Shown in pieces: positions 38 to 28,785 of a stretch of 64,000 nt of DNA. Below the pieces are notes generated by a model. It was not told the DNA's origin. It did no database searches and worked only from the letters and a program-made list of their open reading frames with translations. Every line of letters begins with the position of its first letter. Position 1 is the stretch's first letter. The stretch lies in the sequence record NZ_CP044066.1, one strand, 5' to 3'. A program made the position numbers and the translations under genes. The stretch is from a plasmid.

Positions 38-572
38 ATGCACGGACAGGGATTGGTGACCATGAGCATGCGAGAGATAGACCGCATGAAGGTGATCCAG
101 GCGGTGGCAGACGGCCATTTGGCACGCTGGTGTGCGGCCGAGAAGCTCAGTATCAGTCGCCGCCCGGTCGAGCGGTTGGCGCAGCGATATCGACAGGACG
201 GTCCACGCGGCCTCTTGTCCCGTAAATGGGGGCAAGCCGGCCACCGTCAGTTGGCTCCCCGGGCTGGCGTCACGTGCACGGGGCTTGACCCGCGACCGCT
301 ACGCGGAATTTGGCCCGGCGCTGGCCGCTGAGATCCTGTGCGAGCGTCATGCTAAGGTGAGAGCAACAGAAAGGGAACGGCTGCACCCCACATGCCGGAA
401 GTCGACACCTTATGCGGCAGCGGATCGTCCCAGTATTCCGGACGCCGGCACAGGGTGCAGAAGTGAGCACGGGGTATTCGTTCTCTCCCATTTGATCGTC
501 ATAGTTGCCGCCCTGTGTCTACAGCGTGGACATTGCGGTGGGGCTATCTTTTCTGAAGGTGAGCGACCGTAG
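38..572 (+). pseudogene. Transposase N-terminal fragment (ISNCY-like), frameshifted and 3'-truncated
   Basis: ORF 38-331 contains 'MSMREIDRMKVIQAVADGHLARWCAAEKLSISRRPVERLAQRYRQDGPRGL', typical of the helix-turn-helix N-terminus of ISNCY/IS1202-type transposases. The continuation 'RDRYAEFGPALAAEILCERH' is in a different frame (ORF 132-572). The 3' end is cut off by the end of the 544-4647 gene. Confidence 0.45.
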
Positions 573-3500
573 TCAACAACGCATCGAGACCAATTGGCTT
601 GGATAGATGCGCATCAAAGCCTGCGCGTAAAGCTGCATCGACATCAGCTTGACGATCGAAGCCGCTTATGGCAATGGCATAGATTCCGGCCAGTTTAGGC
701 CGGCTACGCACAGCTCGCAGCAACTCGTAGCCATCCATGCCGGGCATCCCAAGATCCGATAACAAAAGATGCGGTGGCGCGCTCTCCATCTGATCCAGCG
801 CTCGCTCTGCGTTAGTCGCTACGTCGACAGTCGCTCCAATTGACTCGAGCAGCAGTCTAAAGGTCTCCACGGTCAATGCATCGTCATCGACCAAAAACAC
901 ACGCATGCCCTGGAGGACTGCAGTCGGCACTGCTGAGACATGAGCTCCCGTCTCTTGCGTTGAAACAGATGGCAGCTCGACGGTGAAGGTTGCGCCCTGG
1001 CCGATGCCCGCCGACTCGGCATGCACGGTACCATTCTGCAATTCAACCAACTCCTTCACCAACGATAGACCGATGCCGAGCCCACCGCTGCGACCGGCCG
1101 AGAATCCTCCCTGGCGGAACAAGTCAAAGATGTAGGGCAACGTCTGCGCGTCAATGCCCGTGCCCGTATTGCGGACCACCAGACGAAGCTGTGCACCAAT
1201 CCGACTCAAAACGACGTCGATGGCACCACCTTCCTCGGTAAATTTGATTGCGTTGCTGAGCAAGTTCCAAACGATCTGCTCGATACGCGTCAGATCTGCT
1301 CGTACCCACAGCGGCTCCTTACCAATGTCGCAGACCAGGGTCACGCCTCGATCATTTGCGTCTTGCGTAACCGCGTCGCACACGCGTTTCACCACGCTCC
1401 TCAGATCGATTGTCTCTCGGACAATCGATAACTTGCCTGTTCGAATGCGCGACATATCCAGCAAGTCGTCGATAATTTTGGCCTGACCGATGATCGTCTG
1501 TCTGATGGTGTTCGTTGCGCGCTCGATGACAGGATTGCGCTGTGCCTCAGGCGAGCGCGCAATCAACTCATTGCTGGCGCTAATCAGGTTTAGGGGATGC
1601 TTGAGTTCATGCGAGACAATGGCCAAGAACTCGTCACGGCGGAACTGCCCCTGCTGCCATTTGTCTTCATCCGCACGTGGCGCACCGGCGGGCAGCACCT
1701 CGTCCAGGTCGCGGGCGATCTTGGCAAAGCCTATGACGCCACCAGTGTCCAGACGGGACAAGACCCCACTGGAGCGAAAACGCTTGCCGTCCTTGCGCAG
1801 GTGCCAGCGCTCTTCTTCCACACGCCCATATTTGCGAGCCTGTGCCATCTCTTCGTCGGGGACGCCGCGCTCGCGATCTTCCGGCGTAAAGAGGGTGCTC
1901 GCGAGATTACCGAGCATTTCGCTTTCCGAGTATCCGAAGATTCTTTCCGCGCCTCGATTCCAGCTTGTTATGCGACCATCATCATCAAACGTAATGATGG
2001 CGTAATCGCGCGTGCTTTCGGCAACGATGTTCATACGATGCTCGCCTTCACGCGCCCGCTCTTCTGCGGCACGACGTGAGGTGATATCGATGAACGAGAG
2101 CACCGCGCCATCGATGCGGTCCTCTGTGGTTCGATATGGCAAGAATCGCGCGAGGTACCACCGCCCGTCGATACTGCGCAGCTCGCGCTCGATCAATCTC
2201 AGTGAGTCAAAGGCTTCGGCAGCGTCGTCGGCAAGCTTGTCGTACTCCAGACGGTGCGTGATGTCGAGCAGCGATCGGCCGATATCCGAGGGGATAATGC
2301 TAAAGACATCAGTGGCCCGTGGCGTGTAGCGCTTGATTCGGATGTTGCGGTCTACGAATATCGTACCGATGTCGTTCGCCGTAATTAGGTTTTGCAGGTC
2401 GTCGTTGATCTTGCTTGTTTCCTCGACCTTCGACTTCAGTTCCGCATTGACAGTGGTCAGTTCCTCATTGATGGACTGGAGCTCTTCTTTGCTCGTCTCA
2501 AGCTCTTCACTGGCCGAACGTAGCTCCTCGTTGATTGCCTGCAGCTCTTCGTTCGATGCCTTCAGTTCCTCCGTGGATGTCTCGGACTGTTCGATGGTTG
2601 CCTGTAGCTGCTCCTTCGTTCGTTGCAGCTCACGTTCGAGCTGACTCACGATCGGGTCCCGAGACACCACCTCCGAGACTTCACCGTCGGCACTCATGCT
2701 GTTTTCCACTTCGTCGAAGAGTACCAAAATGAAGTCCGCGCCGGATTCGGCGTCGTGCACAGGCCGCGCGATCATGTTGACAAAAAATCGGCGGCCGTCT
2801 CGCGCAAGCTCCACGCGGCGAGCCTCGACGCTGTGATTCGATTGCAATGCCTGGAAGATCGCAGTGCGCAGCTCCAAGCGCAACTCTGGCCTCACGGCAG
2901 CAATAATATTGTGCGAAGGAACGCCGCCGGCATATTGGAGAAAGCGACCGGCCCGATCCGATAGATGGACGATATCGGAGTCGCGGCTAAGCAAGACGCT
3001 CGGCGGCGCGTGTTGCTCCACGAGTCGTTGGTGAAGGTCGCCAAACGAAAACTTACGCTTGCCTGTGGGAGGCTGTAGAGTCATGGGCATTCGTGCGTTG
3101 GCCAAACCGACAGACGATAGCGGCACCGGAGAATCCGTTCTCACGGCAACATTGGCGCGGTAAATCCGCGCCTTCTTGTCAACCAATGTGAAAAGATCGC
3201 CTGCGCCGTCTGCAGTCTCCGAGCTGCCGAGAAATAAGAATCCGCCTTGCCGCAGCGCGAAGTGAAACGTACGGAGAATCTCGAGCTGCGCGTCGCGGTC
3301 CAGGTAAATTAGAAGGTTCCGGCAGCACACCATGTCCAGCCGCGAGAACGGTGGATCGCTAAGGACATTGTGGATAGCGAACAAGACATTGGCACGAAGC
3401 TCTTTCTTCACGCGATAGTGGACTGCCTCCTTGGTCAAAAATTGGCGCGACCTGCGACTGTCCACATCTGCAAGAATTGAATCAGGGTAGAGGCCGAGCC

Positions 3501-5711: not shown

Positions 5712-8705
5712 ATGACGCCATCCAGCACGGTGCATTCCAAAAGTATCTTTCCTCCCATTGTTGCAATCGGTGCCGCAGCTGGTGGGGTCGTTGCCTTGCA
5801 AAAAGTGTTCCGAAGGCTACCCAAAGGCATGCCGTTTGCAATCGTCGTGCTTCAGGACCTCACTGAAGGATACTCACAACGCCTGGCGGGCTTAATATCG
5901 AGTTGGACGAATCTCCCCGTACATGAAGCCGACACCCATTTAGTGCCGAAGATCGGCGAGGTGTATTTACCTTCCCCCGGCCGTGTGCTTACCATCGACG
6001 CACGTTCGCTACGCGCGAGCAAGATCGAAGGTGATCGCCTTGTTAGCGCTAGCGTGAACATGATCGACCGCTTTCTGGAAGGCCTTGCGCAACATCATGG
6101 AAGCCGGGCAGTCGCGGTCATTTTGTCGGGAAAAGGAATGGACGGCGCGGCCGGTGCCTTGTGCATTCGTAATGCCGGCGGGATTGTGATCGTACAGGAT
6201 CCACTGACAGCGTTGCACGATAGCATGCCTAACGCGGTGATACGGCGCGGCCTTCATGATCACATACTGCCACCCGGCGCGATCGGCTCACAAATCCTAG
6301 CGTGTGGCTCCAATAGCTATTCCCGCCCGCGGAATGCTGAAGGGACGGAGCAGATGGACAACAGGGTGTTGGCTCGCATCCTTCTACTAGTCCGCGTGCA
6401 TTCTGGTATCGATTTCACGGGATACAAGACGGCCCCGCTGCTCTGGCGCGTCAAGCAGCGCATGGATCGGCGACATGTGCGAGAGATTGCGGACTACGCA
6501 AGCCTGATCTCGGAAGACCCGGTGGAACTGGAGTCCCTTATCCGCGATATTCCATTACACGTGACCGAATTCTTTCGCGATCCGGGGGCATGGGCAGCAC
6601 TCAAGGAGGAGGTTCTCCTCCCTCTTATGCGGACAGCGGACGCACATAATCCGGTGCGTACATGGACGGCCGGTTGCGCTAGCGGCGAGGAGGCATACTC
6701 GCTTGCGATGACGCTTGAGGATATCAAGCAGGAGATCGATTCTTCTGCGTGTTATCAGAGTTTCGTCACGGATGCTTCTCCCGAGATCGTGCATCGCGCT
6801 CGCTGCGGCGTGTTTGCTCCATCCGACATGGCGACCGTGTCGCAGCGACAACGGACGGAGTATTTCTTTAGTGCAGACAAGATGTTCACTGTCAGAGGTT
6901 TTTTGCGCGAGCAGATGGTTTTCTCCTCTCAGAATCTCATCTCTGACCCTCCATTCGCGAACATGGATCTTGTCACTTGCCGAAACCTACTGATATACCT
7001 AGAGCCCTCCACTGCGAGGCAGATAATCTATATTTTGCACAGTGCGCTGCGCGAAGGGGGCTATCTGTTTCTCGGCGGCAGCGAATCTTATGACCTGGAG
7101 CAAAGCGGCTTTTCAAAAGTGTCCGGGAGGTTCAACATCTTCCGGAAAACCGGGATCGTTCTGGCGCGAGCCAACGCGGAGCATGCGGCCAGTCAACAAC
7201 GTCGCAATATATCAACTTTGAATGCTGGCTTACTTCGTCAGGCCAACGAGGATTTTGTCTTTCCCTCAGTGCTTGTTGACGATCACGGGCGGCTGCTACG
7301 TGTGTATGGGGCCGCCGGTGACATCCTTCGAATACCCGCCGGAGAACCCACAAATACTCTATTGTCGCTACTACCATGGCAATGGGTGGACCCTCTGCGT
7401 CGCGCCATGTGTGAGGCGTTAGCACAAGATCAGCAGCGGATCGTACGGGATCTATATGATCGGGTGGATTTGCGCATCAGAGTGATACCCATACGTGTCA
7501 GCGCCGAGAATCCTCCCAGTCGTATGCTTCTCTCGTTCATGAGCGAGGAGAGCGGTCAATTTACCCTGGTTCCGAGTGTCCCCCTTTCGGAAAGCGTTGA
7601 CCAGCACCGTAGCGGGGTTCGCCGCTGCGCGGGACCGCCTGAGAAAATCCAATCGTCGTCTCATCAGGAATACGACGCTTTACGCGAGAGGCTGCTGGCA
7701 GTCAATGAGGAATTGCTCGCTTCCAATATTTTACTGAACACGAGCAACGATAATCTTCACGGCGCCAACGCCGAACTCCACGAGAAGATTGCGCAGCTGG
7801 AGATTCGTGCGGAAGTACTTTCATCCGGGGAGGTCATGACTATCTTCCTTGACAAGGACCGGAGGGTTCGCTGGTTCACCCCTGCCACCACGAGACTATT
7901 TCCGTTAAAACCGGAGGACGTGGGGCGAGACATCCATGACCTCGTTCCGCGGTTTCGCGATCCGTCGTTCTTGTCCGACATCCAAGAGGTCTTGCGTTCC
8001 TCCGAAATCAAGGATGCCATAGTGCACGGGGACGACGACAGATGGTATCGGCGGCGATTGGTCCCACACGAGGCAGCGATCGGAACCATAGATGGTGTAG
8101 CGGTAACCTTCGAGGACTTCACGACGCGTCGGCACGTCGAAAATGCGCTATGGGCGAGCGAAGATATGCATCGACACAGTCAGATGTGCCTGTCTTCGCA
8201 GAAAGCGGCACTGCAGTTGGCGATGAATGGGGCCCCACTGACAGAGTCGCTTGAGATCCTGCGACATACGATGACCGGAGAGTCAGGCGATAGACGATCC
8301 GCAGCGTTCTATGTAATGCGAGAGTCGAGGCTGCATCACTTGAAGGGAATGCCAGATGCATACGCTCGGTATCTGAATGGCGCTGATGAGACGCTGGAGT
8401 CGGCCTCCTGCAAGTTCGCCCTGGCGACGAACCAAACCGTCACCACATGCGACATCCTTCGCGATGAGCGTTGGAAACCGTGGGCTTTGGTTAGTTCCAG
8501 CTTCGGATATCGCGGTTGTTGGTCGTTTCCCATCCGAACCGGGAGCAGCCAGCTTGTTGGCGCTTTGGTTGTGTACTTCGGTGTCGCTCAAACTCCGGAG
8601 CCTGTTGACCTCCAATTGGCCGCCGCTATGATACACACCGCTGCGATTATCATTTCGCGAAAGGTTGGCGTCGATGTATTCGTAGCGAATGGCTCTCACG
8701 TATAA
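5712..8705 (+). CDS. CheB-like (Ser to Ala) / CheR / coiled coil / PAS / GAF signalling protein, with no kinase core
   Basis: 997 aa. The N-terminal motif is 'PIVAIGAAAGG', a CheB-type motif with Ala in place of the nucleophile Ser. The CheR motif 'VRTWTAGCASGEEAYSLAMTL' is intact. A degenerate 'NEELLASN...NDNL...NAEL' coiled coil, a PAS region and a C-terminal GAF-like region follow. There is no HisKA/HATPase or receiver. ATG at 5712 with a purine-rich upstream. Confidence 0.85.
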   Translation: MTPSSTVHSKSIFPPIVAIGAAAGGVVALQKVFRRLPKGMPFAIVVLQDLTEGYSQRLAGLISSWTNLPVHEADTHLVPKIGEVYLPSPGRVLTIDARSLRASKIEGDRLVSASVNMIDRFLEGLAQHHGSRAVAVILSGKGMDGAAGALCIRNAGGIVIVQDPLTALHDSMPNAVIRRGLHDHILPPGAIGSQILACGSNSYSRPRNAEGTEQMDNRVLARILLLVRVHSGIDFTGYKTAPLLWRVKQRMDRRHVREIADYASLISEDPVELESLIRDIPLHVTEFFRDPGAWAALKEEVLLPLMRTADAHNPVRTWTAGCASGEEAYSLAMTLEDIKQEIDSSACYQSFVTDASPEIVHRARCGVFAPSDMATVSQRQRTEYFFSADKMFTVRGFLREQMVFSSQNLISDPPFANMDLVTCRNLLIYLEPSTARQIIYILHSALREGGYLFLGGSESYDLEQSGFSKVSGRFNIFRKTGIVLARANAEHAASQQRRNISTLNAGLLRQANEDFVFPSVLVDDHGRLLRVYGAAGDILRIPAGEPTNTLLSLLPWQWVDPLRRAMCEALAQDQQRIVRDLYDRVDLRIRVIPIRVSAENPPSRMLLSFMSEESGQFTLVPSVPLSESVDQHRSGVRRCAGPPEKIQSSSHQEYDALRERLLAVNEELLASNILLNTSNDNLHGANAELHEKIAQLEIRAEVLSSGEVMTIFLDKDRRVRWFTPATTRLFPLKPEDVGRDIHDLVPRFRDPSFLSDIQEVLRSSEIKDAIVHGDDDRWYRRRLVPHEAAIGTIDGVAVTFEDFTTRRHVENALWASEDMHRHSQMCLSSQKAALQLAMNGAPLTESLEILRHTMTGESGDRRSAAFYVMRESRLHHLKGMPDAYARYLNGADETLESASCKFALATNQTVTTCDILRDERWKPWALVSSSFGYRGCWSFPIRTGSSQLVGALVVYFGVAQTPEPVDLQLAAAMIHTAAIIISRKVGVDVFVANGSHV

Positions 8706-9785: not shown

Positions 9786-9832
9786 ACGTTGTCTCCAGGG
9801 AAGATTTGCAAAATGGGAGCCTGCGCCGTGTC

Positions 9833-10672: not shown

Positions 10673-10685
10673 GACCGCGCTCCTC

Positions 10686-11120
10686 TCAAATCCCTAGCTT
10701 GCTGATCTTTGTGCCTTCCAGGGACAGGTTTGCCATGAGACCAGCATTGGTGAGGACGAAAGCTATGACCGGTGCGCGCGCGGTATTAGTATTCAACCGA
10801 CCATTTGCGCCGACGCCTATCACTGCAACGGAACCGTCGACACCGGCAGTCCATCCTTTGCTTTGCTGAAAGCTTCGAAGCGAATCCTCTGTCATGAACA
10901 TCAGGATAAGCGCCTTCGATTGAGCGCCCGCAAGCAAACCGAAAGACGCCGTCGTGGTGCGGTAGTACACGCGGGAAGTATTGCCAACGCGCAGCGCGCC
11001 CTCACCATGCTCGGCGCCGACAATGAAGCCTGCCGCGAGTACACGTGGGAAGACCAGCGCACGGTGCGCATCGCTTGCAAGCGAGCTTGACGCCCCCGCA
11101 GTACTGTAGAGGCGAATCAA
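10686..11120 (-). CDS. SYLF/Ysc84-domain protein, apparently 5'-truncated (TTG start, no signal peptide)
   Basis: 'VFPRVLAAGFIVGAEHGEGAL...YYRTTTASFGLLAGAQSKALILMFMTEDSLRSF...GVDGSVAVIGVGANG...LSLEGTKI' matches the SYLF lipid-binding domain core. The ORF begins with TTG at 11120 and lacks the usual N-terminal signal or lipoprotein region. It is directly adjacent to the AT-rich tract. Confidence 0.55.
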   Translation of the reverse strand: MIRLYSTAGASSSLASDAHRALVFPRVLAAGFIVGAEHGEGALRVGNTSRVYYRTTTASFGLLAGAQSKALILMFMTEDSLRSFQQSKGWTAGVDGSVAVIGVGANGRLNTNTARAPVIAFVLTNAGLMANLSLEGTKISKLGI

Positions 11121-11219
11121 GGTACCATCGACGCCTGCATCGATCTCGCGTCTTTTAGCGGCCGCATCCGCGGGGGTCGCTGTGTGAACTCATGGGATCC
11201 ACCGTGATAGCCGGCGCCT

Positions 11220-11560
11220 CGTCGCGTTCAAGCTAGGGATTTTAAAAATCCCAGCCCTGTTGATTTGGCAGTGGAAACTAACTGAGTTTTTATAAAATAG
11301 GTCGACATTGAAATTATCGCAACACCTATTTGCGAATATTTTTTAAAAATAGCAAAGGATTTTTTCGCGGCGGCCTGAAAGTATCTTTATGAAAGCGATG
11401 ATGGATTTTTATGTTGGTAATGAAATTATTTTCTTGCCATAAATTATCCAAAAAAATATAATTGCGTAGGTCAGTAATAGAAGCTAGAGACTCTGCAAGG
11501 TCAGTGTTTTATGAGTCACTGTATTTGTCCATTGCTTACTGATCGGCAGTCTTTGGACGA
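11220..11560. promoter_or_regulatory. ~340-bp AT-rich non-coding tract with an 8-bp-arm palindrome (gggattttaaaaatccc)
   Basis: The sequence 11220-11560 is strikingly AT-rich relative to its flanks ('tttataaaataggtcgacattgaaattatcgc...'). A perfect palindrome 'gggattttaaaaatccc' lies at about 11237-11253. It sits upstream of the SYLF gene. Confidence 0.5.
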
Positions 11561-12352
11561 GTGCGTAAAGATTTGAAGCAAGCTGCGAAGCTTGGGTTTC
11601 CACGATTCAAGGCCGAGGTCTACCCAGTCTGTCTTTGGAGTCGTTGGCCGCCCTTGACCAGCTACCGCAGCAATGCACGAACACGCTCTCCGGAAGGCGA
11701 GTGGCGCACAATGTCATTGTCATGCAAGCGTCTTGGGAGATCGGTGCAGTGCGCATCACGCCGTCTCGGGCGTGGCTGTCACCACGGTCCCATCACGCCG
11801 TATGCGCTCGAAGAAAAGACGCCGTGAGCCCGAGGCAAGTACGTTCCCGGCTATCGCCCACTACTGCGGTGGCGCCAGCCGAATGTGTTGGTTGAGTTGT
11901 GCCGCCCCACGATTGCCCTCTCCGCAGACCCTTCCAACAATGTGTAAGGAAGACACAATCAGGGGGGATCATATAGTTGCTAGCTTGCCGTGTGGCAGAC
12001 ATCTTGCGTTTGTGGGGTTAAACGTGACGTGCTTTCGCCCTTTCGCCTCCCCGCCGGCGATTGTTTGCGGCGTCAATCCTCGGAGAAGCTAATGCAAGGG
12101 GCCGTCTACATACCCCCGCAGCCGGGCCTTCCCTACCTCGCCGTCGTGCTCAGTGCCGATGGTGGTTCGATGATGTGTGCGGCGCCGGTCCCGTCGTTTC
12201 AAGAAGGAGAGAAATACGTGAAGAACATCATCATCAAGCTGAGCGAGTTAGGTAAAGGACTATTGGATCGTTGAGGCTGAGGTTGAGGTCGTCGCGCAAA
12301 ACGACTCACCTATGATGGTCAACCATGCATCGCATCGTCCAAATGCAGCGTT

Positions 12353-14920
12353 TCAGTCGCGAGTATTTGGGTTTCCGCTGGCGCAGGTGTTAGCCAAACG
12401 TGGGTAAGCCTCGGGCGATGTGGGTACGCCGCAGCCGAGTTCATGAAATAGCCCGGTTGGCCCGGCGGAGCCCATGCTGTGCGCCAACGCGAACGCATCG
12501 TCGGGATGTTGCGGCCGGCCGAGCAGATAACCCTGCCCCTCGTCGTATCCTTCTTCGCGCACTACCGCTAGTTGCTCGGGAGTTTCGATTCCTTCAGCAG
12601 TAGTGCGCACACGGAATGCAGCGCCGAGACTGCGCACAGCGTGAAGAATGGCGCGCGCCTCGGTGCTGGTCGCCAGGTCCGATACAAAGGATCGGTCAAG
12701 CTTGATCTTATCGAAAGGAAAGCTGCGCAAGTAGCTTAGCGAAGAATAACCGGTGCCAAAATCATCCATCGCAACGCGCGCGCCCAAGCCGCGCAGATCG
12801 CGGAGCAATTCAAGATTCTCTCGGTCATTTCGCAGCAACACAGATTCGGTAATTTCCAGTTCGAGCCTCGAGACGTCTACGCCCGCATGGTCCACGGCGC
12901 GGCGCACGGCGTCGACTAACTCGCGCCCTCTGAACTGAAGCGGCGAGAGATTAACACCAACACTAATCCCCGATGGCCAACGGGCCAGTTGTCGGCACGC
13001 TTCGCTTAGCACCCAATTTCCAATCGGAACAATCAGACCCGTCTCTTCCGCCAACGGGATGAAATCGGCGGGCGACACAAGGCCATCAGTCGGATGTCGC
13101 CATCGCAGCAGAGCCTCGAAGCTGCGTAGCTGGCCTGAGCGCAGATCATAGATCGGCTGATAGTGAAGCTCGAGTTGCCCAGCCGCAAGCGCGTGATGCA
13201 GGGCACGTTTGCGTTCGAGCCGCTGCTTGGTCCGATCGCCTTGATCGGCTGAGAAGAAACGGTAGATACCTGGCCCTTCTGCCTTGGCTTGATAAAGCGC
13301 CATGTCCGCAGCCTGCAGTAGCTCATCAGCATTGCGCCCATCATTGGGAAAAAGCGCTATTCCGATGCAACCACCCAGTCTCACTGGCGCCTTGTTCAGC
13401 TCGAACGGGCGTGAGAGCTGCTCGACCAAACGCCGCGCCAGGCCTTCCACTGCGTATCGGTCAACGACCTGCTCTTGGATTACAACAAACTCATCCCCCC
13501 CGATGCGAGCCACCGCGTCAGCATCGGCCACGCATTCGAGCAGCCGACTAGCTACCTGCTGGAGCACGACATCGCCGGCATAATGGCCAAACGCATCGTT
13601 GACGCCTTTGAAGCCGTCCAGATCAATGTACAGCAGCGCGGCGAGCGTATCCGTTCCTGCCGCAGTGATAGTCTGCTCAATGCGTTCGCGCCAAAGCAGA
13701 CGATTAGCGATACCGGTCAGGGGATCATGGCGCGCCGTGTGCGCGAGTGCTTCTTGGTTAGCAAGCAACTGGTGCTCAGCATTCTTACGCTGGGAGATAT
13801 CGCGAAAAAACACTGAGAGGCCGTCGGCAGTCGGATACACATGGACTTCATACCAGGCCTGAAGTATTTTCATGTGATGCTCAAACACGATCGGTCTCTG
13901 AGTAGTGACGGCAGTCCGATAATGTTCCGCGAAGACTCCATCTCGCTCTTCCGGGAAAATGTCCCACACCACGCGCCCGATGGCGGGGTTGCGCCCCGCC
14001 ATCGCGCGTAACGCATTGCCATTGAAGTAGGTCAGGCGTAAGGAGTGGTCGAGTTGCACCACGCTATCGGTCGTACTCTCGAGTACGGCCGACAAGCGGC
14101 TAGCAAGCGCCTCGATCGCCATGGTCGCCGACTTGCGCTCGTCGACGTCTTCGAGTGTGCCATACCAGCGGATGACGTTCCCACAGTCGTCAGTCCGAGC
14201 GGCTGCACGCGCGCGGTGCCAGCGGTAAGTGTCATCCCACAGCTTTACACGATATTCCAGATCCACCGCTTGCTGCGTGGCAACGGCCTCGGCCCACGCT
14301 TCGCGCACGCGTGGCAGATCGTCCGGATGCACGCAACGCGTCCACCCGTCACCCAATGCATCATCCACGGGCATGCCTGTGAGCTCGGTCCAGCGCGGAC
14401 CGGCCTCAGTAATCCATCCCGTGGGATCGGCGGTCCAGGGGATCTCTGGGCTCAATTCGACCGCAGATCGATAGTGCGCCTCGCTCTCCAAGAGTGCCTG
14501 CTCGATGCGGTGTTTATCAGTGATGTCAGTGATCCAGACAAGCAACAAAGGCTCGTCCGAACCTTGCACCCATATCGGGCGCTTGCGGGTACGGAGAACC
14601 CGAGCGTCGCAGCCCGGCATCTGAAATACTTCCGTCGTCTCTCGGTACTCGCCGCGATCGAATACTTGGTCGTGGATAGCCCGGTACTCCGCTGCCCGCT
14701 CTGCAGTAAAAAGCTCGTTGTCTGTACGTCCAATTAGCTCCTGAGCGGGTCGCTGCATGAGTTGACACATCGCCGGGTTCACGAACAACCAGACGCTGCG
14801 CCGGTTCTTCAGCAGCAGAGGCTCCGGAAATTGGCGCCATATTTCCTCGAGGGTCCCGGTTGGTAATGGTGGGCATTCGGGCCTCAGGTCTTCTTTCAGC
14901 TCTGGCAACGATCCCCCCAT
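12353..14920 (-). CDS. PAS/PAC-GGDEF-EAL c-di-GMP turnover protein
   Basis: 855 aa. Multiple PAS-like segments. GGDEF motif in 'RIGGDEFVVI'. EAL domain with 'EALLRWRHP' and 'DDFGTGYSSLSYL'. Confidence 0.9.
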   Translation of the reverse strand: MGGSLPELKEDLRPECPPLPTGTLEEIWRQFPEPLLLKNRRSVWLFVNPAMCQLMQRPAQELIGRTDNELFTAERAAEYRAIHDQVFDRGEYRETTEVFQMPGCDARVLRTRKRPIWVQGSDEPLLLVWITDITDKHRIEQALLESEAHYRSAVELSPEIPWTADPTGWITEAGPRWTELTGMPVDDALGDGWTRCVHPDDLPRVREAWAEAVATQQAVDLEYRVKLWDDTYRWHRARAAARTDDCGNVIRWYGTLEDVDERKSATMAIEALASRLSAVLESTTDSVVQLDHSLRLTYFNGNALRAMAGRNPAIGRVVWDIFPEERDGVFAEHYRTAVTTQRPIVFEHHMKILQAWYEVHVYPTADGLSVFFRDISQRKNAEHQLLANQEALAHTARHDPLTGIANRLLWRERIEQTITAAGTDTLAALLYIDLDGFKGVNDAFGHYAGDVVLQQVASRLLECVADADAVARIGGDEFVVIQEQVVDRYAVEGLARRLVEQLSRPFELNKAPVRLGGCIGIALFPNDGRNADELLQAADMALYQAKAEGPGIYRFFSADQGDRTKQRLERKRALHHALAAGQLELHYQPIYDLRSGQLRSFEALLRWRHPTDGLVSPADFIPLAEETGLIVPIGNWVLSEACRQLARWPSGISVGVNLSPLQFRGRELVDAVRRAVDHAGVDVSRLELEITESVLLRNDRENLELLRDLRGLGARVAMDDFGTGYSSLSYLRSFPFDKIKLDRSFVSDLATSTEARAILHAVRSLGAAFRVRTTAEGIETPEQLAVVREEGYDEGQGYLLGRPQHPDDAFALAHSMGSAGPTGLFHELGCGVPTSPEAYPRLANTCASGNPNTRD

Positions 14921-22129: not shown

Positions 22130-22834
22130 TTAGCTGCCGGGGAGCAGTCGTTCGAATTCCCGCTTCACCACGGCATAGCATTCGCAGACGCGCTCTTCCA
22201 ACCCCGCACGGTCAAGAATGGCGATGTGACCATGACTGTAGCGGATCAAGCCTGCAGCCTGTAGCTTCAGCGCAGCCTCAGTCACTCCCGATCGTCGCAC
22301 GCCAAGCATGTTTGCGATGAGTTCCTGAGTCATCGTCAGATCGTTTGTCGGCAACCGGTCCAGACTCAAAAGCAGCCATCGGCAGAGTTGCTGGTCGATG
22401 GAATGATGGCGATTGCAAACTGCTGTCTGTGCCATCTGCGTGATGAGTGCCTGGGTGTACCGCAACAAGAGTTGCTGCATCGGCCCCCCGCGCTGGAACT
22501 CCTGCCTCAATATCATGGCGCCCATGCGGTATGCATGCCCCGCGCTCTGCACGACTGCACGGCTTGGCGTCGTTTCCCCGCCCATGAAGATGGCAATACC
22601 AACGATTCCTTCGTTGCCGACAATTGCGATCTCCGCCGACGCTCCATCCTCCATTACGTACAACAGCGAAATGATCGAGTCGACCGGGAAGTAGACCGAT
22701 CGTAGCTGGTCCCCCGATTCGTACACAACGTGACCCAATGGGAGTTCCACCAACTCCACATGTGGGTAAAGACGCGCCTTATCAGCTGCCGGGAGCATGG
22801 CAAGTAAGCGATTGGACATCGGGGTGATCGCCAT
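22130..22834 (-). CDS. Crp/Fnr-family transcriptional regulator
   Basis: cNMP-binding-like barrel ('VELPLGHVVYESGDQLRSVYFPVDSIISL'). C-terminal HTH ('MTQELIANMLGVRRSGVTEAALKLQAAGLI'). Confidence 0.85.
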   Translation of the reverse strand: MAITPMSNRLLAMLPAADKARLYPHVELVELPLGHVVYESGDQLRSVYFPVDSIISLLYVMEDGASAEIAIVGNEGIVGIAIFMGGETTPSRAVVQSAGHAYRMGAMILRQEFQRGGPMQQLLLRYTQALITQMAQTAVCNRHHSIDQQLCRWLLLSLDRLPTNDLTMTQELIANMLGVRRSGVTEAALKLQAAGLIRYSHGHIAILDRAGLEERVCECYAVVKREFERLLPGS

Positions 22835-23093
22835 AGCTGTCTCTTCTTGGGAGTACCGAGATTGGTCGGGACAGCCCTTCTGAGGACAAAAATTCTCGAT
22901 ACTTCCAATCCAACTATAGGCAGTCGCCGACTTGAGACAAGTGCCCACAAAGCTTCCCTAACCTGCCCTTGACTTGCCGTATCACAACCCCTATAACATC
23001 CATATGGACGGTATGAGGATGGCTGTGGGATGGCATCTGACGGTATGTGAATAAAAATCCTCCCTTCGAGATTCGACAGCGGCACAGAGAAAA

Positions 23094-24699: not shown

Positions 24700-27600
24700 C
24701 TATTGACGACCGCGGCTGATCAATGCGTTTAGCTTTTGATAATCCGCGGGTTTGACCATGTAGTGGTCGATTGCGCCCTGCCTGTGGTGTCCGGTCGCAG
24801 GAAGGCCATAGCCGCTCAGTGCAACCACGAGCACGCTGGTTTGTTCCGGCATTTCGCGGATCCGGCGCGCCACTTCATAGCCGTCCATATCAGGCAGACC
24901 AATATCGAGCAAGATCACTTCCGGACGGAACTCTTCTACCGACGCAAGAGCCGCAGTTCCATCGGCGGCAACACGTACCTCGTGCCCATCCAGGAGCAAA
25001 AGAGCGGCCGCGCTCTGCGCGGCATCATTGTTATCATCCACCAGCAATATTCGGCGACTCGTAGGTTCGCTCGCTGGCTCAACGGGATTCGAATGGCGAT
25101 CGGCCAATGTTCCGTGGGGCAACACAGGTAATCGTACGACAAACGTGCTGCCTTGGTTCAGCCCTGGGCTCGTCGCATGGACGGTGCCACCGTGCAGTTC
25201 AACTAGCTTGCGCACCAGCGCGAGTCCGAGCCCCAAGCCCGACTGTCTCCGATCCGCAGGCGAGTCCGCCTGTACGAAAATGTCAAAAATCGGTGAAAGA
25301 AGCTCTTTCTTCATTCCGATACCGTCATCGGTCAGCGTGATAACCGCCTCATCGCCCTGGCGCTCCAGCGTGAGGGCAATATGGCCGCCATCTGGGGTGT
25401 ACTTGATGGCGTTTGCCAGCAGATTGCTAACAATCTGCTCGAGCCGTAGAGGATCTCCTTTGACAATCAGCGAGCCCGGCGGCAGCCTAAGGGTCAGCTC
25501 ATGCCGTTGCAGATCCGCAAGCGGACGAAGGGTCTGGATTGCGTGTCGCACAGGTTCCGCTAGATCTATCTGGACAGACCTAACGACGATCACGCCGCGG
25601 GTGATTCGCGAGACATCGAGAAGGTCGTCGACGAGGCCGATCTCGTGGTCCAGTTGTCGCTGCACCGATTCTTGCACCTGCCGAACGGTCACGGCGTCGG
25701 CGGTACCGCGCTGCCAGACAAGTAGCCCGCTGCGAATTGCGGCAAGTGGATTGCGCAACTCGTGTCCAAGCATAGCCAGGAATTCATCTTTCTGACGATC
25801 GGCTTCTTGCAGCCGGGCAAAATCCGCTCGCTGCCTGGTGACATCTTCAATCGTCAGGAGAACCGAGCCCTGCCCTGACCAGTCCAACCTGCGCGCATTT
25901 AGTCGCATGGTGCGCAGGCCGATTCGCGGGAAAGCGTGAACGATCTCGTAATCGCGAACCGCGGAATGTCGGGGAAGTACATTCTCGAGCAGTTCGCGTA
26001 GCGCCGGAATATCCCACTGGCCGTTACCCAGTGCGTATAGCCGGGAGCCCGCAGTGCTCTCAACAGTCGTGGCGAACATCTGGTAGAAAGCCGCGTTGGC
26101 TCGCTTTACGCGAAGGCCCCCATCGAGCACGAGGATCGGCTGTGCCGTCGTCTCGATGATACCCTCCGCAAAGTCTCTGGCCCCGGCGACATCGGTGTGC
26201 AGATCCTTGAGCTCTCGCACCCGATAGCGCAGTTCCTCATTGGTGGTCGAGAGTTCTTCATTGATCGACTGGAGCTCTTCCTTCGCCGTCTCCAGCTCCT
26301 CGTTCGTGCTGCGGAACTCCTCGTTGCTAGATAGCAGTTCTTCCTCGCTGGACTTGAGTTCCTCGCGGGCGCTCTCGTGCTCTTCCAGCGCCGCTCTGAG
26401 ACGCTCACGGGTTGCGGCAAGCTCGCTTGTCAGCCGGGCGATCTCCTCATCTTTGCCCCCGCGGGTACGGGCGTATTGCGGCCCAACACGCTGCTGCAGT
26501 AACTGTAGGATCAACGCCCTGAGAGGTGCATCTGCAAATCCTCTTTGCGTGACCGGAGGGTAGATGTGTCCCTCGAAAAAGACCAGGAACCAGCGCGAAT
26601 CAGTGCCCGATAGCTTTACGGGACGCACTTCAATGCTGGCCGCACAGTCGCTGCCAGCAAGATTGGCCCGCAATCCTGTCCGACGAGCCGGCGCACCGCT
26701 CTGGCGTACTCTATTGATCGCTTCCGTAACGGCCAGAAAAATCTCCGGCCTAGCGAGTTTTTGAAGGTTCATGCTCGGAGGACCTTCCGGATTAGATAGC
26801 CACCCACTTGTATCGCCGCGAAACATAAGGATATTGAGGTCGCTATCGCATACCACACCGGGGGGCGCGTAGCGACCGAGAGCCTGCCGGTCGGCCTCTG
26901 TGCGGAGTTGCGTTTCCTGCGTTTGTTCACGAGTGGAAGTTCCATGTCGATTTGCTCCGCCATGGGGTCGGGCTGCGATTGTGTCCGGCAACGACGGCTG
27001 AATAGTAGGTCGTGGTTTTCGGATGTAGACCTTGGAACTAGCGTCTTCCAGAACGCCAAAGTACTCGGAGAACGCTCCGACAGTTTCGGAAGGGCCGAGC
27101 ATCAAGACGCCTTCAGTGCGCAACGCATAATGAAAGAGAGGCAGCACGCGAGCTTGTAGCACCGGATCGAGGTAGATCAGCAGGTTCCTGCAACTCACCA
27201 GGCTCATGCGCGAAAACGGGGGATCCTCGGCGACGTTGTGACGCGCAAAGGTACACATGTCCCGTAAGGACTTGTCGATGCGGAAGTATTCGCCTTCGCG
27301 CACGAAATAGCGGCTCAGGCGCTCGGCCGAGACGTTGCGCGCAATATTTTCTATGTAGCGTCCGGTGCGAGCGGCTTCCAGCGCCTCAAGGCTGACGTCC
27401 GTGCCGAATATTTGTACTGAGGCTTCCGAAAGTTGGGGCCCAAGATACTCCGCCAGGCAAATGGCAAGCGAATAGACCTCTTCCCCGCTCGCGCATCCCG
27501 GCACCCAGATTCGAATGGGCCGGTTTGCGCCTGTCTCGCGGAGAATGCGGGGCAAAACGGTGTGTACCAGGGTGTCGAATGTCTTCGGGTCCCGAAAGAA

Positions 27601-28467
27601 CTCGGTTACGCGGACGAGTAGATCACGACCCAGCGCCAGCGCCTCGGCTGTATCCTCTTCAAGGACTGCACGATAGTCGGCTAGCGATGTCAATTGGCGC
27701 AAAGCCATACGACGCGCGAGTCTGCGCTCGACAGTACCGCGCTTGTAATGGGTGAAGTCGATCGTGCAGGCCGATCGTAAGAGCCAGAATATGCGCCGGA
27801 GGGCGGGGCCTCCCGAATCGGCTTCTAGGCTTGTACAAACATCATCTCCAACCCGCCGGATCGGGAGGGCTGTGATACGTCCGATCTCCGCCGCGATCTC
27901 TTGCGGCTTCATAACGAAGTCGACGCAACCAGTGGCAATGGCCGCCCGCGGCATGCTGGAGAATTTAGCGGATTCCTCGTCCTGCGCAAACGTAATTCCG
28001 CCCTCCCGCTGCAGCGCACGCAGGCCCAACGCGCCGTCCGAGCCTCCACCCGAAAGCACGACGCCGATGGCGTTCTGACCTTCATGCGCCGCCAGCGAGT
28101 CGAACAGATCGTCGATTGGCATCGGAGGGCCCAGCGTGTTGCCACCCGGCTCGAGGTGAATCTTCCAGCCATTCACGAACATTCGGGCGTTGGGCGGAAT
28201 TACGTAGACGCGATTGATCCCTAACTGCATTCCGTCAACCGCTTCGACCACCTCCATTTCCGTTCGCGTGGCCAGAATTCCGGGCAGCAAACTCTCGTGG
28301 GACGGGTCAAGATGCTGAACGATCAGGAACGCCGCACCAGTGTCGCCAGGAAGCGCGCCAAAAAAGTCGGACAGCGCCTCTAGTCCGCCAGCTGATGCGC
28401 CAATACCAACGAGCGGAATCGAGGAAGGCGTCGGTTCTGCAGAATCCGCGGACAGGCTAGTCGCCAT
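24700..28467 (-). CDS. CheB methylesterase / CheR methyltransferase / PAS / histidine kinase / receiver hybrid sensor protein (paralog of 544-4647)
   Basis: CheB motif 'PLVGIGASAGG'. CheR motif 'IRIWVPGCASGEEVYSLAICL'. A heptad EEL array and a PAS region. HisKA 'GHELRNPLAAIR'. HATPase 'NLLANAIKYT...GLGLGLALV'. C-terminal receiver 'RILLVDDNND...DIGLPDMDGYEV'. The ATG at 28467 ('MATSLSADS') is preceded by GAGGA. The track ORF extends to 28521. Confidence 0.9.
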   Translation of the reverse strand: MATSLSADSAEPTPSSIPLVGIGASAGGLEALSDFFGALPGDTGAAFLIVQHLDPSHESLLPGILATRTEMEVVEAVDGMQLGINRVYVIPPNARMFVNGWKIHLEPGGNTLGPPMPIDDLFDSLAAHEGQNAIGVVLSGGGSDGALGLRALQREGGITFAQDEESAKFSSMPRAAIATGCVDFVMKPQEIAAEIGRITALPIRRVGDDVCTSLEADSGGPALRRIFWLLRSACTIDFTHYKRGTVERRLARRMALRQLTSLADYRAVLEEDTAEALALGRDLLVRVTEFFRDPKTFDTLVHTVLPRILRETGANRPIRIWVPGCASGEEVYSLAICLAEYLGPQLSEASVQIFGTDVSLEALEAARTGRYIENIARNVSAERLSRYFVREGEYFRIDKSLRDMCTFARHNVAEDPPFSRMSLVSCRNLLIYLDPVLQARVLPLFHYALRTEGVLMLGPSETVGAFSEYFGVLEDASSKVYIRKPRPTIQPSLPDTIAARPHGGANRHGTSTREQTQETQLRTEADRQALGRYAPPGVVCDSDLNILMFRGDTSGWLSNPEGPPSMNLQKLARPEIFLAVTEAINRVRQSGAPARRTGLRANLAGSDCAASIEVRPVKLSGTDSRWFLVFFEGHIYPPVTQRGFADAPLRALILQLLQQRVGPQYARTRGGKDEEIARLTSELAATRERLRAALEEHESAREELKSSEEELLSSNEEFRSTNEELETAKEELQSINEELSTTNEELRYRVRELKDLHTDVAGARDFAEGIIETTAQPILVLDGGLRVKRANAAFYQMFATTVESTAGSRLYALGNGQWDIPALRELLENVLPRHSAVRDYEIVHAFPRIGLRTMRLNARRLDWSGQGSVLLTIEDVTRQRADFARLQEADRQKDEFLAMLGHELRNPLAAIRSGLLVWQRGTADAVTVRQVQESVQRQLDHEIGLVDDLLDVSRITRGVIVVRSVQIDLAEPVRHAIQTLRPLADLQRHELTLRLPPGSLIVKGDPLRLEQIVSNLLANAIKYTPDGGHIALTLERQGDEAVITLTDDGIGMKKELLSPIFDIFVQADSPADRRQSGLGLGLALVRKLVELHGGTVHATSPGLNQGSTFVVRLPVLPHGTLADRHSNPVEPASEPTSRRILLVDDNNDAAQSAAALLLLDGHEVRVAADGTAALASVEEFRPEVILLDIGLPDMDGYEVARRIREMPEQTSVLVVALSGYGLPATGHHRQGAIDHYMVKPADYQKLNALISRGRQ
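26225..26400 (-). repeat. Intragenic 21-nt (7-aa) tandem repeat array encoding EELKSSE/EELLSSN/EEFRSTN/EELETAK/EELQSIN/EELSTTN
   Basis: The reverse complement translates to 'REELKSSEEELLSSNEEFRSTNEELETAKEELQSINEELSTTNEEL'. The + strand shows periodic 'gagctcttc/ctcctcgtt' units. Confidence 0.85.
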
Positions 28468-28785
28468 GAGTGTCCTCTGTGCCAGTACGATACCCACGCC
28501 ACCAATCACGTCTCGCCGCACTAAGGTCTTCCCTGATCATACGCCTCGGTTGTGGGCGCTGCCCCTGAGCTCCTCCCATTACTGCAAATTTGTACCCAAT
28601 TCGGCGACGCAATGTGCAATATCGAAAGACGAAAGTCGGCAAGCTCTGCGAGGTGGTCGCCTATGCGACGCTTATTGAGGGTTTCGACGCGGTTGGGATC
28701 ACCTTTCGAAAGCATGGCTGGCGGGCACGATGATTGCGCTTCAGTGAATGCCTTGCGTTTCGCAGGGCGATCACAGAGGTTCACA

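What the first reader, a model, noticed from the sequence alone, without database searches (positions are those of the whole stretch)
26225..26400. Second independent EE-x-x-[AST]-[ST] heptad array in the paralogous hybrid kinase
The paralog at 24700-28467 carries EELKSSE, EELLSSN, EEFRSTN, EELETAK, EELQSIN and EELSTTN. This is the same 7-aa periodicity and the same position between the CheR and PAS domains, but the units differ. Conservation of the EE + small-residue pattern despite this sequence divergence argues for selection on the motif rather than recent duplication.
Basis: partly seen in the sequence, partly recalled or inferred. Interest (0 to 1): 0.7.

Follow-up and report, generated by a model that had tools for sequence, protein, structure and literature searches.

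The report
Glutamate-pair helix in CheB/CheR fusion kinase
The repeated Glu-Glu heptads are real, but they are one ancient, near-invariant helix found in every CheB/CheR fusion protein examined, and the evidence suggests, without proving, that it is the built-in target of the protein's own methylating and demethylating domains.

Summary
The array is real. It covers eight heptads, EEHESAR to EELRYRV, at window 26218-26385 on the minus strand. The gene (24700-28467) is identical to a Cupriavidus pauculus plasmid protein.

It is not a second independent array. It matches the array of the paralog at 544-4647 unit for unit. It is the hallmark of the CheB/CheR fusion family (KEGG K13924) across at least 10 phyla.

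- **True motif:** E-E-L-x-[ST]-x-N. E1, E2 and N7 are the most conserved positions.
- **Structure:** AlphaFold2 predicts one continuous 102-residue helix between two PAS-type domains.
- **Co-occurrence:** The array and the CheB-CheR pair went together in both samples examined. The output domains vary.
- **Natural experiment:** A third paralog (5712-8705) has a dead CheB (Ser to Ala, His to Asp). It kept the L/N skeleton but only one Glu-Glu pair. Of 309 family members, all three lacking the CheB serine (two lineages) have at most one pair, against one of 306 with it.

Best reading (about 0.5): a built-in methyl-accepting helix modified by the fused CheR and CheB. There is no biochemical proof, and the strict chemoreceptor consensus is not met in this gene. 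I found no paper describing the array.

The parts
24700..28467 (-). Gene A: CheB/CheR fusion hybrid histidine kinase, 1255 aa from ATG 28467 (the ORF list starts it at GTG 28521)
   Evidence: ORF. Pfam domains. The exact sequence equals WP_150374013.1/QET03948.1, a Cupriavidus pauculus plasmid protein.
27883..28410 (-). CheB methylesterase catalytic domain, with no N-terminal receiver domain; the Ser-His-Asp triad is present
   Evidence: Pfam PF01339, E=4e-56. Alignment to S. typhimurium CheB 1A2O shows Ser164 and His190 conserved. Column check gives SHD.
27049..27801 (-). CheR_N plus CheR SAM-dependent methyltransferase domain, with motifs intact
   Evidence: Pfam PF03705 and PF01739. Alignment to CheR structures 5FTW and 1BC5 keeps the FFR, GEExYS, TD and CRNxxIY motifs. 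Column check gives RGEDRN.
26560..26889 (-). PAS-like domain between CheR and the helix; no Pfam hit in this paralog
   Evidence: AlphaFold2 model residues 1-110 form a beta-sheet/helix PAS-type fold with pLDDT above 90. Foldseek matches tandem-PAS sensors.
26455..26550 (-). Linker of about 32 residues with low model confidence, ahead of the helix; a possible flexible tether for the enzyme domains
   Evidence: pLDDT is 48-59 over model residues 111-150; residues below 50 are 114-120 and 135-145. The tether role is inferred.
26149..26454 (-). Single continuous alpha-helix of 102 residues (aa 690-791) linking the PAS-like domain to PAS_4
   Evidence: AlphaFold2 helix H146-247, pLDDT 94-98.
26218..26385 (-). 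The heptad array: EEHESAR EELKSSE EELLSSN EEFRSTN EELETAK EELQSIN EELSTTN EELRYRV
   Evidence: Family-wide conservation.
26239..26343 (-). Near-invariant core, units U2-U6; it holds 9 of the 11 invariant columns of the 361-residue PAS-helix-PAS module
   Evidence: One search lists invariant columns E184, N189, E191, E197, E198, E204, E205, E211 and N217.
25828..26148 (-). PAS_4 domain directly after the helix; the PAS_10 domain found here in paralog B and most of the family is absent
   Evidence: the consensus, and the match lengths.
24718..25794 (-). HisKA, HATPase_c and receiver (REC) output module
2425..2571 (-). Homologous array in paralog B (gene 544-4647): EELKASN EELQAIN EELRSAS EELETSK EELQSIN EELTTVN AELKSKV
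7686..7811 (+). Degenerate array in the third paralog C (gene 5712-8705): ERLLAVN EELLASN ILLNTSN DNLHGAN AELHEKI. The L/N skeleton is kept and only one Glu-Glu pair remains.
5775..5858 (+). Paralog C CheB active site, inactivated: nucleophile Ser to Ala (aa 22) and triad His to Asp (aa 49)

Best explanation
The array is the central, highly acidic part of a roughly 100-residue helix. That helix is the fixed hallmark of the CheB/CheR fusion protein family (KEGG K13924; R. sphaeroides 'CheBRA').

**Shown here**
- The helix links an N-terminal CheB-CheR-PAS-like unit to a C-terminal PAS-plus-output unit.
- Its heptad is E-E-L-x-[ST]-x-N.
- The Glu-Glu pair, the Ser/Thr and the Asn are the most conserved positions. 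The second hydrophobic position is the least conserved.
- In both samples examined, the array and the CheB-CheR domain pair went together.

**Inferred**
- The Glu-Glu pairs are reversible methylation sites. The fused CheR domain would write them with SAM and the fused CheB domain would erase them. The enzymes would act in cis or across the dimer, held near the helix by a flexible linker of about 30 residues.
- Methylation would neutralise a rod that carries about -13 charges per 49 residues. That would change helix packing and so the signal passed to the kinase or other output.
- The result would be a one-protein counterpart of chemoreceptor adaptation.
For: 1. **Conservation pattern.** Mean entropy for heptad positions 1-7 is 0.24, 0.21, 0.91, 1.46, 0.77, 1.72 and 0.39 bits over 82 sequences from at least 10 phyla. 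Hydrophobicity puts position 3 in the core, with position 6 next. On either possible register, at least two of the near-invariant E1, E2 and S/T5 face the solvent. This is the reverse of a purely structural coiled coil (inference).
2. **No charge partners.** Median net charge is -13 per 49 residues.
3. **Co-occurrence in both directions.** In 80 genome loci the array ORF carries CheR and CheB, or they lie in adjacent frames split by frameshifts. The exceptions are loci lacking the upstream sequence and one 5'-truncated remnant. Of 150 CheB-CheR fusion representatives, 129 of 129 with enough sequence after CheR carry the array at a fixed distance, median 190 aa. Outputs vary: HK, HK-REC, GAF or none.
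4. **Enzymes intact.** The CheB Ser and His and the CheR SAM and catalytic motifs are conserved in gene A and in nearly all members.
5. **Coupling test.** Among 309 distinct full-length members, the three that lack the CheB nucleophile Ser have 1, 1 and 0 EE-L units. These are window paralog C, P0392 and P0498, in two independent lineages. Only 1 of 306 members with Ser has one or fewer, and it is the sister of the C lineage. Fisher p=8e-7, not corrected for phylogeny. Paralog C keeps the L/N skeleton.
6. **Resemblance to chemoreceptor sites.** Sites are heptad-spaced. The relaxed pattern [EQ][EQ]xx[ASTG][ASTG] matches 6 times in A and 4 times in B. In the type II subfamily, units 0 and 2 are EEL[ED]AS and EEL[KR]A[S/V], the classical Glu-Glu-X-X-Ala-Ser. 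Unit 3 is [DE]Q, with Gln at the second position in 82% of sequences.
7. **Possible tether.** A low-confidence linker of about 32 residues precedes the helix.
8. **Precedent.** CheR has a reported non-chemoreceptor substrate in a two-component system, PhoP (PMC8546571).
Against: - There is no biochemical evidence anywhere that I could find (10 literature searches).
- The strict chemoreceptor consensus EExxA[ST] has 0 matches in gene A. The 10-residue Alexander-Zhulin consensus has 0 matches in A and B and about 0.1 per array family-wide.
- In type I arrays Glu is almost never replaced by Gln: 8 and 2 of about 490 cells. E/Q interchange is common at chemoreceptor sites.
- The helix is predicted as one continuous rod, not the antiparallel hairpin of chemoreceptors. 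There is no Pfam MCPsignal hit.
- The coupling test rests on only two independent loss events.
- In paralog C the CheR motifs still look intact although the Glu pairs are gone.
- The host genus has ordinary chemoreceptors (my own knowledge), so action in trans is not excluded.
Confidence: 0.5

Rival explanations
1. The array is only a signal-transmitting coiled-coil linker between PAS modules. The fused CheB and CheR act in trans on chemoreceptors or other proteins, and the Glu, Asn and Ser pattern serves helix packing and dynamics only.
For: - AlphaFold2 gives one long helix between two PAS-type domains. Foldseek matches tandem-PAS sensors with helical linkers, including DosP, PpsR, FixL and LOV-HK.
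- The strict chemoreceptor site consensus is not met.
- R. sphaeroides workers deleted cheBRA together with the cheB or cheR homologues when mapping chemoreceptor sites, a step that fits concern about trans activity (my reading).
- Asn and Glu at positions flanking the core could form an interhelical hydrogen-bond ladder (inference).
Against: - The least conserved heptad position is the second core position. The most conserved positions include ones that must face the solvent.
- The rod has no compensating positive charges.
- The array occurs only with CheB-CheR, whatever the output domain.
- The Glu pairs, but not the L/N skeleton, are lost exactly where the CheB nucleophile is lost.
- The family is abundant in Chitinophagaceae, Mucilaginibacter and Flavobacteriia. 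From my own knowledge these groups are mostly non-flagellated and poor in chemoreceptors; I did not test this.
Confidence: 0.3
2. The array is a docking site or pseudo-substrate. It binds the basic receptor-recognition surface of CheR, or the active sites of CheB and CheR, to hold or autoinhibit them, but it is not turned over itself.
For: - This reading rests on the same conservation of exposed residues and the same co-occurrence with the enzymes.
- The CheR N-domain helix in A and B is rich in Arg and Lys: YKRGTVERRLARR.
- Substrate mimicry has a precedent in chemotaxis, CheC mimicking receptor sites for CheD (my memory; not checked here).
Against: - Six to eight repeated sites are more than a docking function needs.
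- Loss of the Glu pairs tracks loss of the catalytic Ser of CheB, not loss of the domain. That points to catalysis rather than binding.
Confidence: 0.12
3. The acidic rod binds cations or a basic partner protein unrelated to CheB and CheR.
For: Net charge is about -13 per 49 residues, with regularly spaced carboxylate pairs.
Against: - It does not explain the strict association with CheB-CheR or the coupling to the CheB nucleophile.
- No conserved partner gene appears in the neighbourhoods I looked at.
Confidence: 0.05
4. One reading: the two arrays arose independently by convergence, or one is a recent duplicate or gene-conversion copy of the other.
For: Both lie on the same replicon, and a third paralog sits next to B.
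Against: - The units correspond one to one and to the family consensus across phyla.
- Nucleotide identity is 68%, and 13 of 34 identical residues use different codons.
- A and B belong to different architectural subtypes, without and with PAS_10.
Confidence: 0.02

Closest known systems
CheB/CheR fusion proteins (KEGG K13924; 'signal transduction histidine kinase with CheB and CheR activity'; R. sphaeroides CheBRA)
   Same: - The domain order is the same: CheB, CheR_N, CheR, PAS-like, helix, PAS, then an output.
- Homologs carry these names.
- The array is conserved unit for unit.
- Gene A is a plain member. Its exact sequence is already in NCBI as 'chemotaxis protein CheB' / 'response regulator'.
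   Different: Nothing structural differs. [quoted passage not shown] No paper I found mentions the heptad array.
Methylation helices of methyl-accepting chemotaxis proteins (for example Tar/Tsr MH1, consensus Glu-Glu-X-X-Ala-Ser/Thr spaced 7 residues apart; from established literature, recalled)
   Same: - Glu-Glu pairs recur every seven residues on a long acidic helix.
- A small residue sits at +4.
- CheR and CheB are the associated enzymes.
- The type II subfamily has exact EExxAS units and a [DE]Q unit.
   Different: - The helix is a single continuous rod between PAS domains, not an antiparallel four-helix-bundle hairpin.
- There is no MCPsignal domain.
- Position +5 is unconstrained in type I arrays. 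Leu at +2 and Asn at +6 are conserved instead.
- The 10-residue consensus is not met.
- The enzymes are fused covalently rather than recruited by a C-terminal pentapeptide.
Helical linkers of tandem-PAS sensors and the 'signalling helix' (S-helix) of sensor kinases
   Same: - A long heptad-periodic helix joins a sensor module to a PAS/kinase module.
- Foldseek's best matches are DosP, PpsR (Q-linker), FixL and LOV-HK.
   Different: - At about 102 residues it is much longer.
- Its exposed positions are more conserved than its core, and it is strongly acidic.
- No ERT-type S-helix signature is visible in the sequence (direct reading; the signature is recalled from Anantharaman et al. 2006).
CheR acting on a non-chemoreceptor two-component protein (PhoP in Salmonella, PMC8546571)
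   Same: A chemotaxis methyltransferase modifies a two-component signalling protein outside the chemoreceptor array.
   Different: In that paper CheR was assigned to Arg112, not to the Glu/Asp pairs. The enzyme and its substrate are separate proteins.

Membership tests
CheB/CheR fusion protein family (K13924) | CheB methylesterase and CheR methyltransferase domains in one polypeptide | tested here: met
   Pfam PF01339 at E=4e-56, PF03705 and PF01739 at E=5e-49.
CheB/CheR fusion protein family (K13924) | Conserved PAS-like / heptad helix / PAS module downstream of CheR | tested here: met
   3678 hits to this module, many named 'CheB/CheR fusion protein'. 129 of 129 informative fusion representatives carry the array.
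CheB/CheR fusion protein family (K13924) | Catalytic residues of both enzymes retained | tested here: met
   The CheB S-H-D triad and the CheR R/GEE/D/RN motifs are present in A and B. This is not met for CheB in paralog C.
Chemoreceptor (MCP) methylation site | Classical consensus Glu-Glu-X-X-Ala-Ser/Thr | tested here: not met
   The strict pattern has 0 matches in A and 1 in B, with a family mean of 0.3 per array. The relaxed [EQ][EQ]xx[ASTG][ASTG] has 6 in A and 4 in B. Type II relatives do meet it in units 0 and 2.
Chemoreceptor (MCP) methylation site | 10-residue consensus [ASTG][ASTG]xx[EQ][EQ]xx[ASTG][ASTG] (Alexander and Zhulin 2007, recalled) | tested here: not met
   0 matches in A and B. 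Family mean is 0.1 per array.
Chemoreceptor (MCP) methylation site | Sites spaced by seven residues along one face of a helix | tested here: met
   Eight consecutive heptads on a predicted continuous helix.
Chemoreceptor (MCP) methylation site | Located in the antiparallel hairpin of an MCPsignal cytoplasmic domain | tested here: not met
   No MCPsignal hit at E<=0.01. The model shows a single helix with no hairpin.
Chemoreceptor (MCP) methylation site | Glutamates actually methylated by CheR and demethylated by CheB | not testable with these tools
   This needs a SAM-labelling assay or mass spectrometry. The only indirect evidence is the coupling of the EE pairs to the CheB nucleophile.
Signalling-helix / coiled-coil PAS linker | Long heptad-periodic helix joining sensor and output modules | tested here: met
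   Helix at aa 690-791 with pLDDT 94-98. Structural neighbours are tandem-PAS sensors.
Signalling-helix / coiled-coil PAS linker | Core (a/d) positions more conserved than exposed positions | tested here: not met
   Entropy at position 6 is 1.72 bits and at position 3 is 0.91 bits. Positions 1, 2, 7 and 5 give 0.24, 0.21, 0.39 and 0.77 bits.
Recent tandem DNA duplication | Detectable 21-nt tandem repeat with high identity | tested here: not met
   TRF finds nothing in A at a minimum score of 30. In B it finds only 2.4 copies at 80% identity.

The most novel reading that the evidence does not exclude
CheB/CheR fusion proteins would be self-contained adaptation devices. A methyl-accepting helix built into the sensor is written and erased by its own fused CheR and CheB. 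This would give histidine kinases, GAF proteins and other outputs a chemoreceptor-like memory with no chemoreceptor, CheA or CheW. It would assign a mechanism to a very large, phylum-spanning and so far uncharacterised family.
Probability: 0.45. Interest if true: 0.8.

Novelty: new variant of a known kind. Interest (0 to 1): 0.55.

Why it matters
**Size of the family.** The gene is an ordinary member of a known but functionally unexplained family. The PAS-helix-PAS module alone drew 3678 database matches (E<=1e-5) among the 8000 candidates scored. Members occur in Proteobacteria, Bacteroidota, Cyanobacteria, Acidobacteriota, Verrucomicrobiota, Chloroflexota, Gemmatimonadota, Myxococcota and others.

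**If the glutamate pairs are methylation sites.** Reversible glutamate methylation, the textbook adaptation mechanism of chemotaxis, would also operate inside ordinary two-component sensors.

**Testability.** The window offers three natural constructs:
- two paralogs (A and B) with intact arrays and intact enzymes;
- one paralog (C) with a dead esterase and a degenerate array.

**If the sites are not methylated.** The reverse conservation pattern of the helix, with exposed positions more conserved than the core, would still need an explanation.

Tried and rejected
- **Literature.** Ten full-text searches found no description of the array and no functional study of the family. Terms included CheBR, CheB-CheR, the motif strings, K13924, PAS_10, CheBRA and Bacteroidetes. 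The only relevant item is that R. sphaeroides CheBRA is 'putative' (papers read).
- **Solved structures by sequence.** Nothing covers the helix. The best hits are generic coiled coils at E above 0.07.
- **Array-only profile search.** It returned only fragments of 135 aa or less. The tool seems to cap hit length at about 1.75 times the query. Two fragments on long contigs proved to be frameshift pieces of CheB/CheR fusion genes, not stand-alone array proteins.
- **Unnamed Pfam accessions.** The local Pfam copy does not name PF28159, PF28256 or PF24161. One such accession, PF28175, turned out to be a generic coiled-coil family seen only as a faint hit.
- **'No array' fusion representatives.** These are truncated or frameshifted sequences.
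- **PLSDB search with gene A.** No match. The source was identified by exact protein look-up instead.
- **dN/dS.**
  - A versus B: I did not attempt it, because the two proteins are only 37% identical.
  - Close orthologs (92-100% identity): too few changes for a test by heptad position. 3 of 56 array columns vary, against 139 of 1199 elsewhere.
- **NCBIfam scytonemin-kinase model.** It aligns to B from the array onward, but far below its cut-off (131.8 bits against 865). I did not pursue it.
Full report
**Observation**

The minus-strand ORF 24700-28521 has its annotated start at ATG 28467. From there it encodes 1255 aa, identical to WP_150374013.1 from a 249-kb Cupriavidus pauculus plasmid. 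Its domain order is CheB methylesterase, CheR_N, CheR, a region with no Pfam hit, PAS_4, HisKA, HATPase_c and REC.

Between CheR and PAS_4 lie eight consecutive heptads that begin with Glu-Glu: EEHESAR, EELKSSE, EELLSSN, EEFRSTN, EELETAK, EELQSIN, EELSTTN and EELRYRV. They occupy window 26218-26385(-). One further unit lies on each side.

In the six-frame translation of the whole window, such runs occur only here and in the paralog at 544-4647 (array at 2446-2571). There is no DNA-level tandem repeat in this array, and only a weak 21-nt repeat of 2.4 copies in the paralog.

**The array is not independent**

The two arrays align unit for unit:
- EELKSSE with EELKASN
- EELETAK with EELETSK
- EELQSIN, which is identical in both
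- EELSTTN with EELTTVN

34 of 49 residues are identical, against 37% for the whole proteins. 13 of the 34 identical residues use different codons, and nucleotide identity is 68%.

A search with the PAS-helix-PAS module returned 3678 relatives among the 8000 candidates scored. Many are named 'two-component system CheB/CheR fusion protein'. The array aligns without gaps across them, with the consensus EELKSANEEILSSNEELQSTNEELETAKEELQSTNEELTTVNEEL.

The same holds in 80 genome loci. These come from Burkholderiales, Gammaproteobacteria, Alphaproteobacteria, Bacteroidota, Cyanobacteria, Acidobacteriota, Verrucomicrobiota, Chloroflexota, Gemmatimonadota, Myxococcota and Elusimicrobiota. Each unit has its own identity; for example, unit 4 is EELET[AS]K in more than 85% of sequences. 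The module is therefore ancient, and both paralogs inherited it.

Nine of the eleven invariant columns of the 361-residue module lie in the array. Among orthologs 92-100% identical to gene A, 3 of 56 array columns vary, against 139 of 1199 elsewhere.

**What is actually conserved**

Over units U1-U6 in 82 sequences, mean column entropy is as follows:

| Heptad position | 1 | 2 | 3 | 4 | 5 | 6 | 7 |
|---|---|---|---|---|---|---|---|
| Entropy (bits) | 0.24 | 0.21 | 0.91 | 1.46 | 0.77 | 1.72 | 0.39 |

The motif is E-E-L-x-[ST]-x-N, with Lys at position 7 of unit 4.

Hydrophobicity marks position 3 as a core position, with position 6 next. Whether the register is a/d = 3/6 or d/a = 3/7, at least two of E1, E2 and S/T5 face the solvent. 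Yet they are more conserved than the core. The 49-residue stretch carries a median net charge of -13, with no basic partners. A purely structural coiled coil would show the opposite pattern. This step is an inference.

**Structure**

AlphaFold2 was run on aa 545-905 with a 64-sequence alignment, giving a mean pLDDT of 90. It predicts:
- a PAS-like domain;
- a low-confidence linker of about 32 residues;
- one uninterrupted helix at aa 690-791 (102 residues, pLDDT 94-98);
- the PAS_4 domain.

Foldseek against the PDB finds tandem-PAS sensors with helical linkers, including DosP, PpsR, FixL and LOV-HK. No solved structure matches the helix by sequence. The helix is a rod, not the hairpin of chemoreceptors.

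**Link to the enzymes**

In the 80 loci, the ORF carrying the array also carries CheR and CheB, whatever follows it (HK, HK-REC or neither). The apparent exceptions fall into three groups:
- genes split by frameshifts, with CheB and CheR in the adjacent frame;
- loci where the contig ends before, or inside, the upstream enzyme domains;
- one 5'-truncated remnant (L053), with a transposase-like ORF upstream, that has lost two units.

The reverse also holds. Of the 150 best CheB-CheR fusion cluster representatives, all 129 with at least 330 residues after CheR carry the array, a median of 190 residues after the end of CheR. The rest are truncated or frameshifted.

Gene A keeps the CheB Ser and His, aligned to S. 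typhimurium CheB 1A2O, and the CheR FFR, GEExYS, TD and CRNxxIY motifs. So do nearly all members. No che genes or chemoreceptor genes appeared among the neighbours I scanned. Those neighbours include a PHB-depolymerase-type esterase, a Mn catalase and a Crp-like regulator.

**A natural experiment**

The window holds a third paralog, C (5712-8705, +, 997 aa). Its order is CheB, CheR, PAS_10 and GAF, with no kinase. Its CheB nucleophile Ser is Ala and the triad His is Asp, while its CheR motifs look intact. Its linker keeps the Leu/Asn skeleton but only one Glu-Glu pair: ERLLAVN EELLASN ILLNTSN DNLHGAN AELHEKI.

C belongs to a second array type, here called type II. Its consensus over 104 sequences is EEL[ED]ASR EELQALN EEL[KR]A[SV]N [DE]QLNxSN [ED][ED]LNxAN. 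Three features stand out:
- The three leading Glu-Glu pairs are 86-100% conserved.
- Units 0 and 2 match the classical chemoreceptor site Glu-Glu-X-X-Ala-Ser.
- Unit 3 carries Gln at the second position in 82% of sequences, as in the EQ sites of chemoreceptors.

Among 309 distinct full-length family members, the number of EE-[LIVMF] units in one frame runs from 0 to 9. The three members without the CheB Ser have 1, 1 and 0. These are C, P0392 and P0498. P0498 is an independent lineage: it is only 36-40% identical to the C clade and has a different linker architecture. Of the 306 members with Ser, only one has one or fewer, and it is the sister of the C lineage. Fisher p=8e-7, uncorrected for phylogeny, so this amounts to two events.

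The Glu pairs therefore appear to be retained only where the esterase is alive. The Leu/Asn skeleton persists either way.

**Interpretation**

The best-supported reading, at a confidence of about 0.5, is that the helix is a built-in methyl-accepting element. The fused CheR would write it and the fused CheB would erase it. Charge neutralisation would tune helix packing and hence the output.

The following count against it:
- There is no biochemistry.
- The strict chemoreceptor consensus and the 10-residue consensus are not met in A or B.
- There is almost no E/Q interchange in type I arrays.
- The helix is a rod rather than a hairpin.
- The coupling rests on only two loss events.
- CheR looks intact in paralog C.

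The main rival, at about 0.3, is a purely structural signalling helix with the enzymes acting in trans. A docking or pseudo-substrate role is possible, at about 0.12. Convergent or recent origin of the two arrays is rejected.

**Comparison with what is known, and novelty**

Gene A is a plain member of the CheB/CheR fusion family and is already in public databases under generic names. In the literature I could search, the family is mentioned only as a 'CheB-CheR hybrid' or as the 'putative methyltransferase-methylesterase fusion' CheBRA. None of the motif strings appears in any paper.

A methyl-accepting helix fused to its own modifying enzymes, outside a chemoreceptor, would be a new variant of a known mechanism. 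The underlying feature is more general and more testable.

Noticed in passing
window 5712-8705 (+): A third CheB/CheR fusion paralog (997 aa; CheB, CheR, PAS_10, GAF; no kinase). It is 100% identical to a Cupriavidus pauculus plasmid protein. Its CheB is inactivated (Ser to Ala at aa 22, His to Asp at aa 49). Its linker helix keeps the L/N heptads but only one Glu-Glu pair.
   Followed up: yes
P0394-P0500 (relatives of paralog C); window 7686-7811: A second, shorter array type in the C-like clade: EEL[ED]ASR EELQALN EEL[KR]ASN [DE]QLNxSN [ED][ED]LNxAN. It has exact EExxAS units and a conserved [DE]Q unit, reminiscent of the EQ sites of chemoreceptors that CheB deamidates.
   Followed up: partly
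window 25828-26148 (-), compared with paralog B aa 751-856: Gene A goes straight from the helix into PAS_4. It lacks the PAS_10 domain that follows the array in B and in most of the family. The loci split into a short type and a long type (match lengths about 1000 nt against about 1350 nt).
   Followed up: partly
window 26455-26550 (-): A linker of about 32 residues with low model confidence (pLDDT 48-59) lies between the PAS-like domain and the long helix. It could act as a flexible tether that lets CheB and CheR reach along the helix.
   Followed up: no
L053:4927-5712: A Chitinophagales contig carries a 5'-truncated copy of the module with no CheB or CheR upstream. A transposase-like ORF and an opposite-strand membrane protein lie upstream of it. 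Its array has lost two units (EELQSTNEELMTINNEL).
   Followed up: partly
window 22130-22948 (-); L082:1-2943: A Crp-like regulator (cNMP_binding plus HTH_Crp_2) lies near gene A. Two Crp-like genes also lie just upstream of a fragmented CheB/CheR fusion gene in an unrelated metagenomic contig. This may be a recurring neighbourhood.
   Followed up: no
window 9144-14920: The same window is dense in signalling genes: a LuxR-type response regulator (9144-10121), a small HisKA-HATPase kinase (9833-10672) and a PAS-PAS-GGDEF-EAL protein (12353-14920). No CheA, CheW or chemoreceptor appeared among the ORFs I scanned.
   Followed up: no
P0503-P0510 (HWE_HK-type outputs): A clade has Asn in place of the CheB triad Asp (S-H-N) yet keeps 5-7 Glu-Glu units. 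Either the Asp is dispensable or shifted in the alignment, or this clade is a counter-example to the coupling.
   Followed up: no
window 544-4647 (-) and 24700-28521 (-): Start codons differ from the longest ORFs. NCBI annotates A from ATG 28467 (1255 aa) and B as 1354 aa. The ORF list gives 1273 and 1367 aa.
   Followed up: partly
window 544-4647 (-), aa 691-1228: The NCBIfam model for the scytonemin-biosynthesis sensor kinase aligns to B from the first array residue onward (model positions 114-636), far below its cut-off. That cyanobacterial kinase may carry a related helix without CheB and CheR.
   Followed up: no
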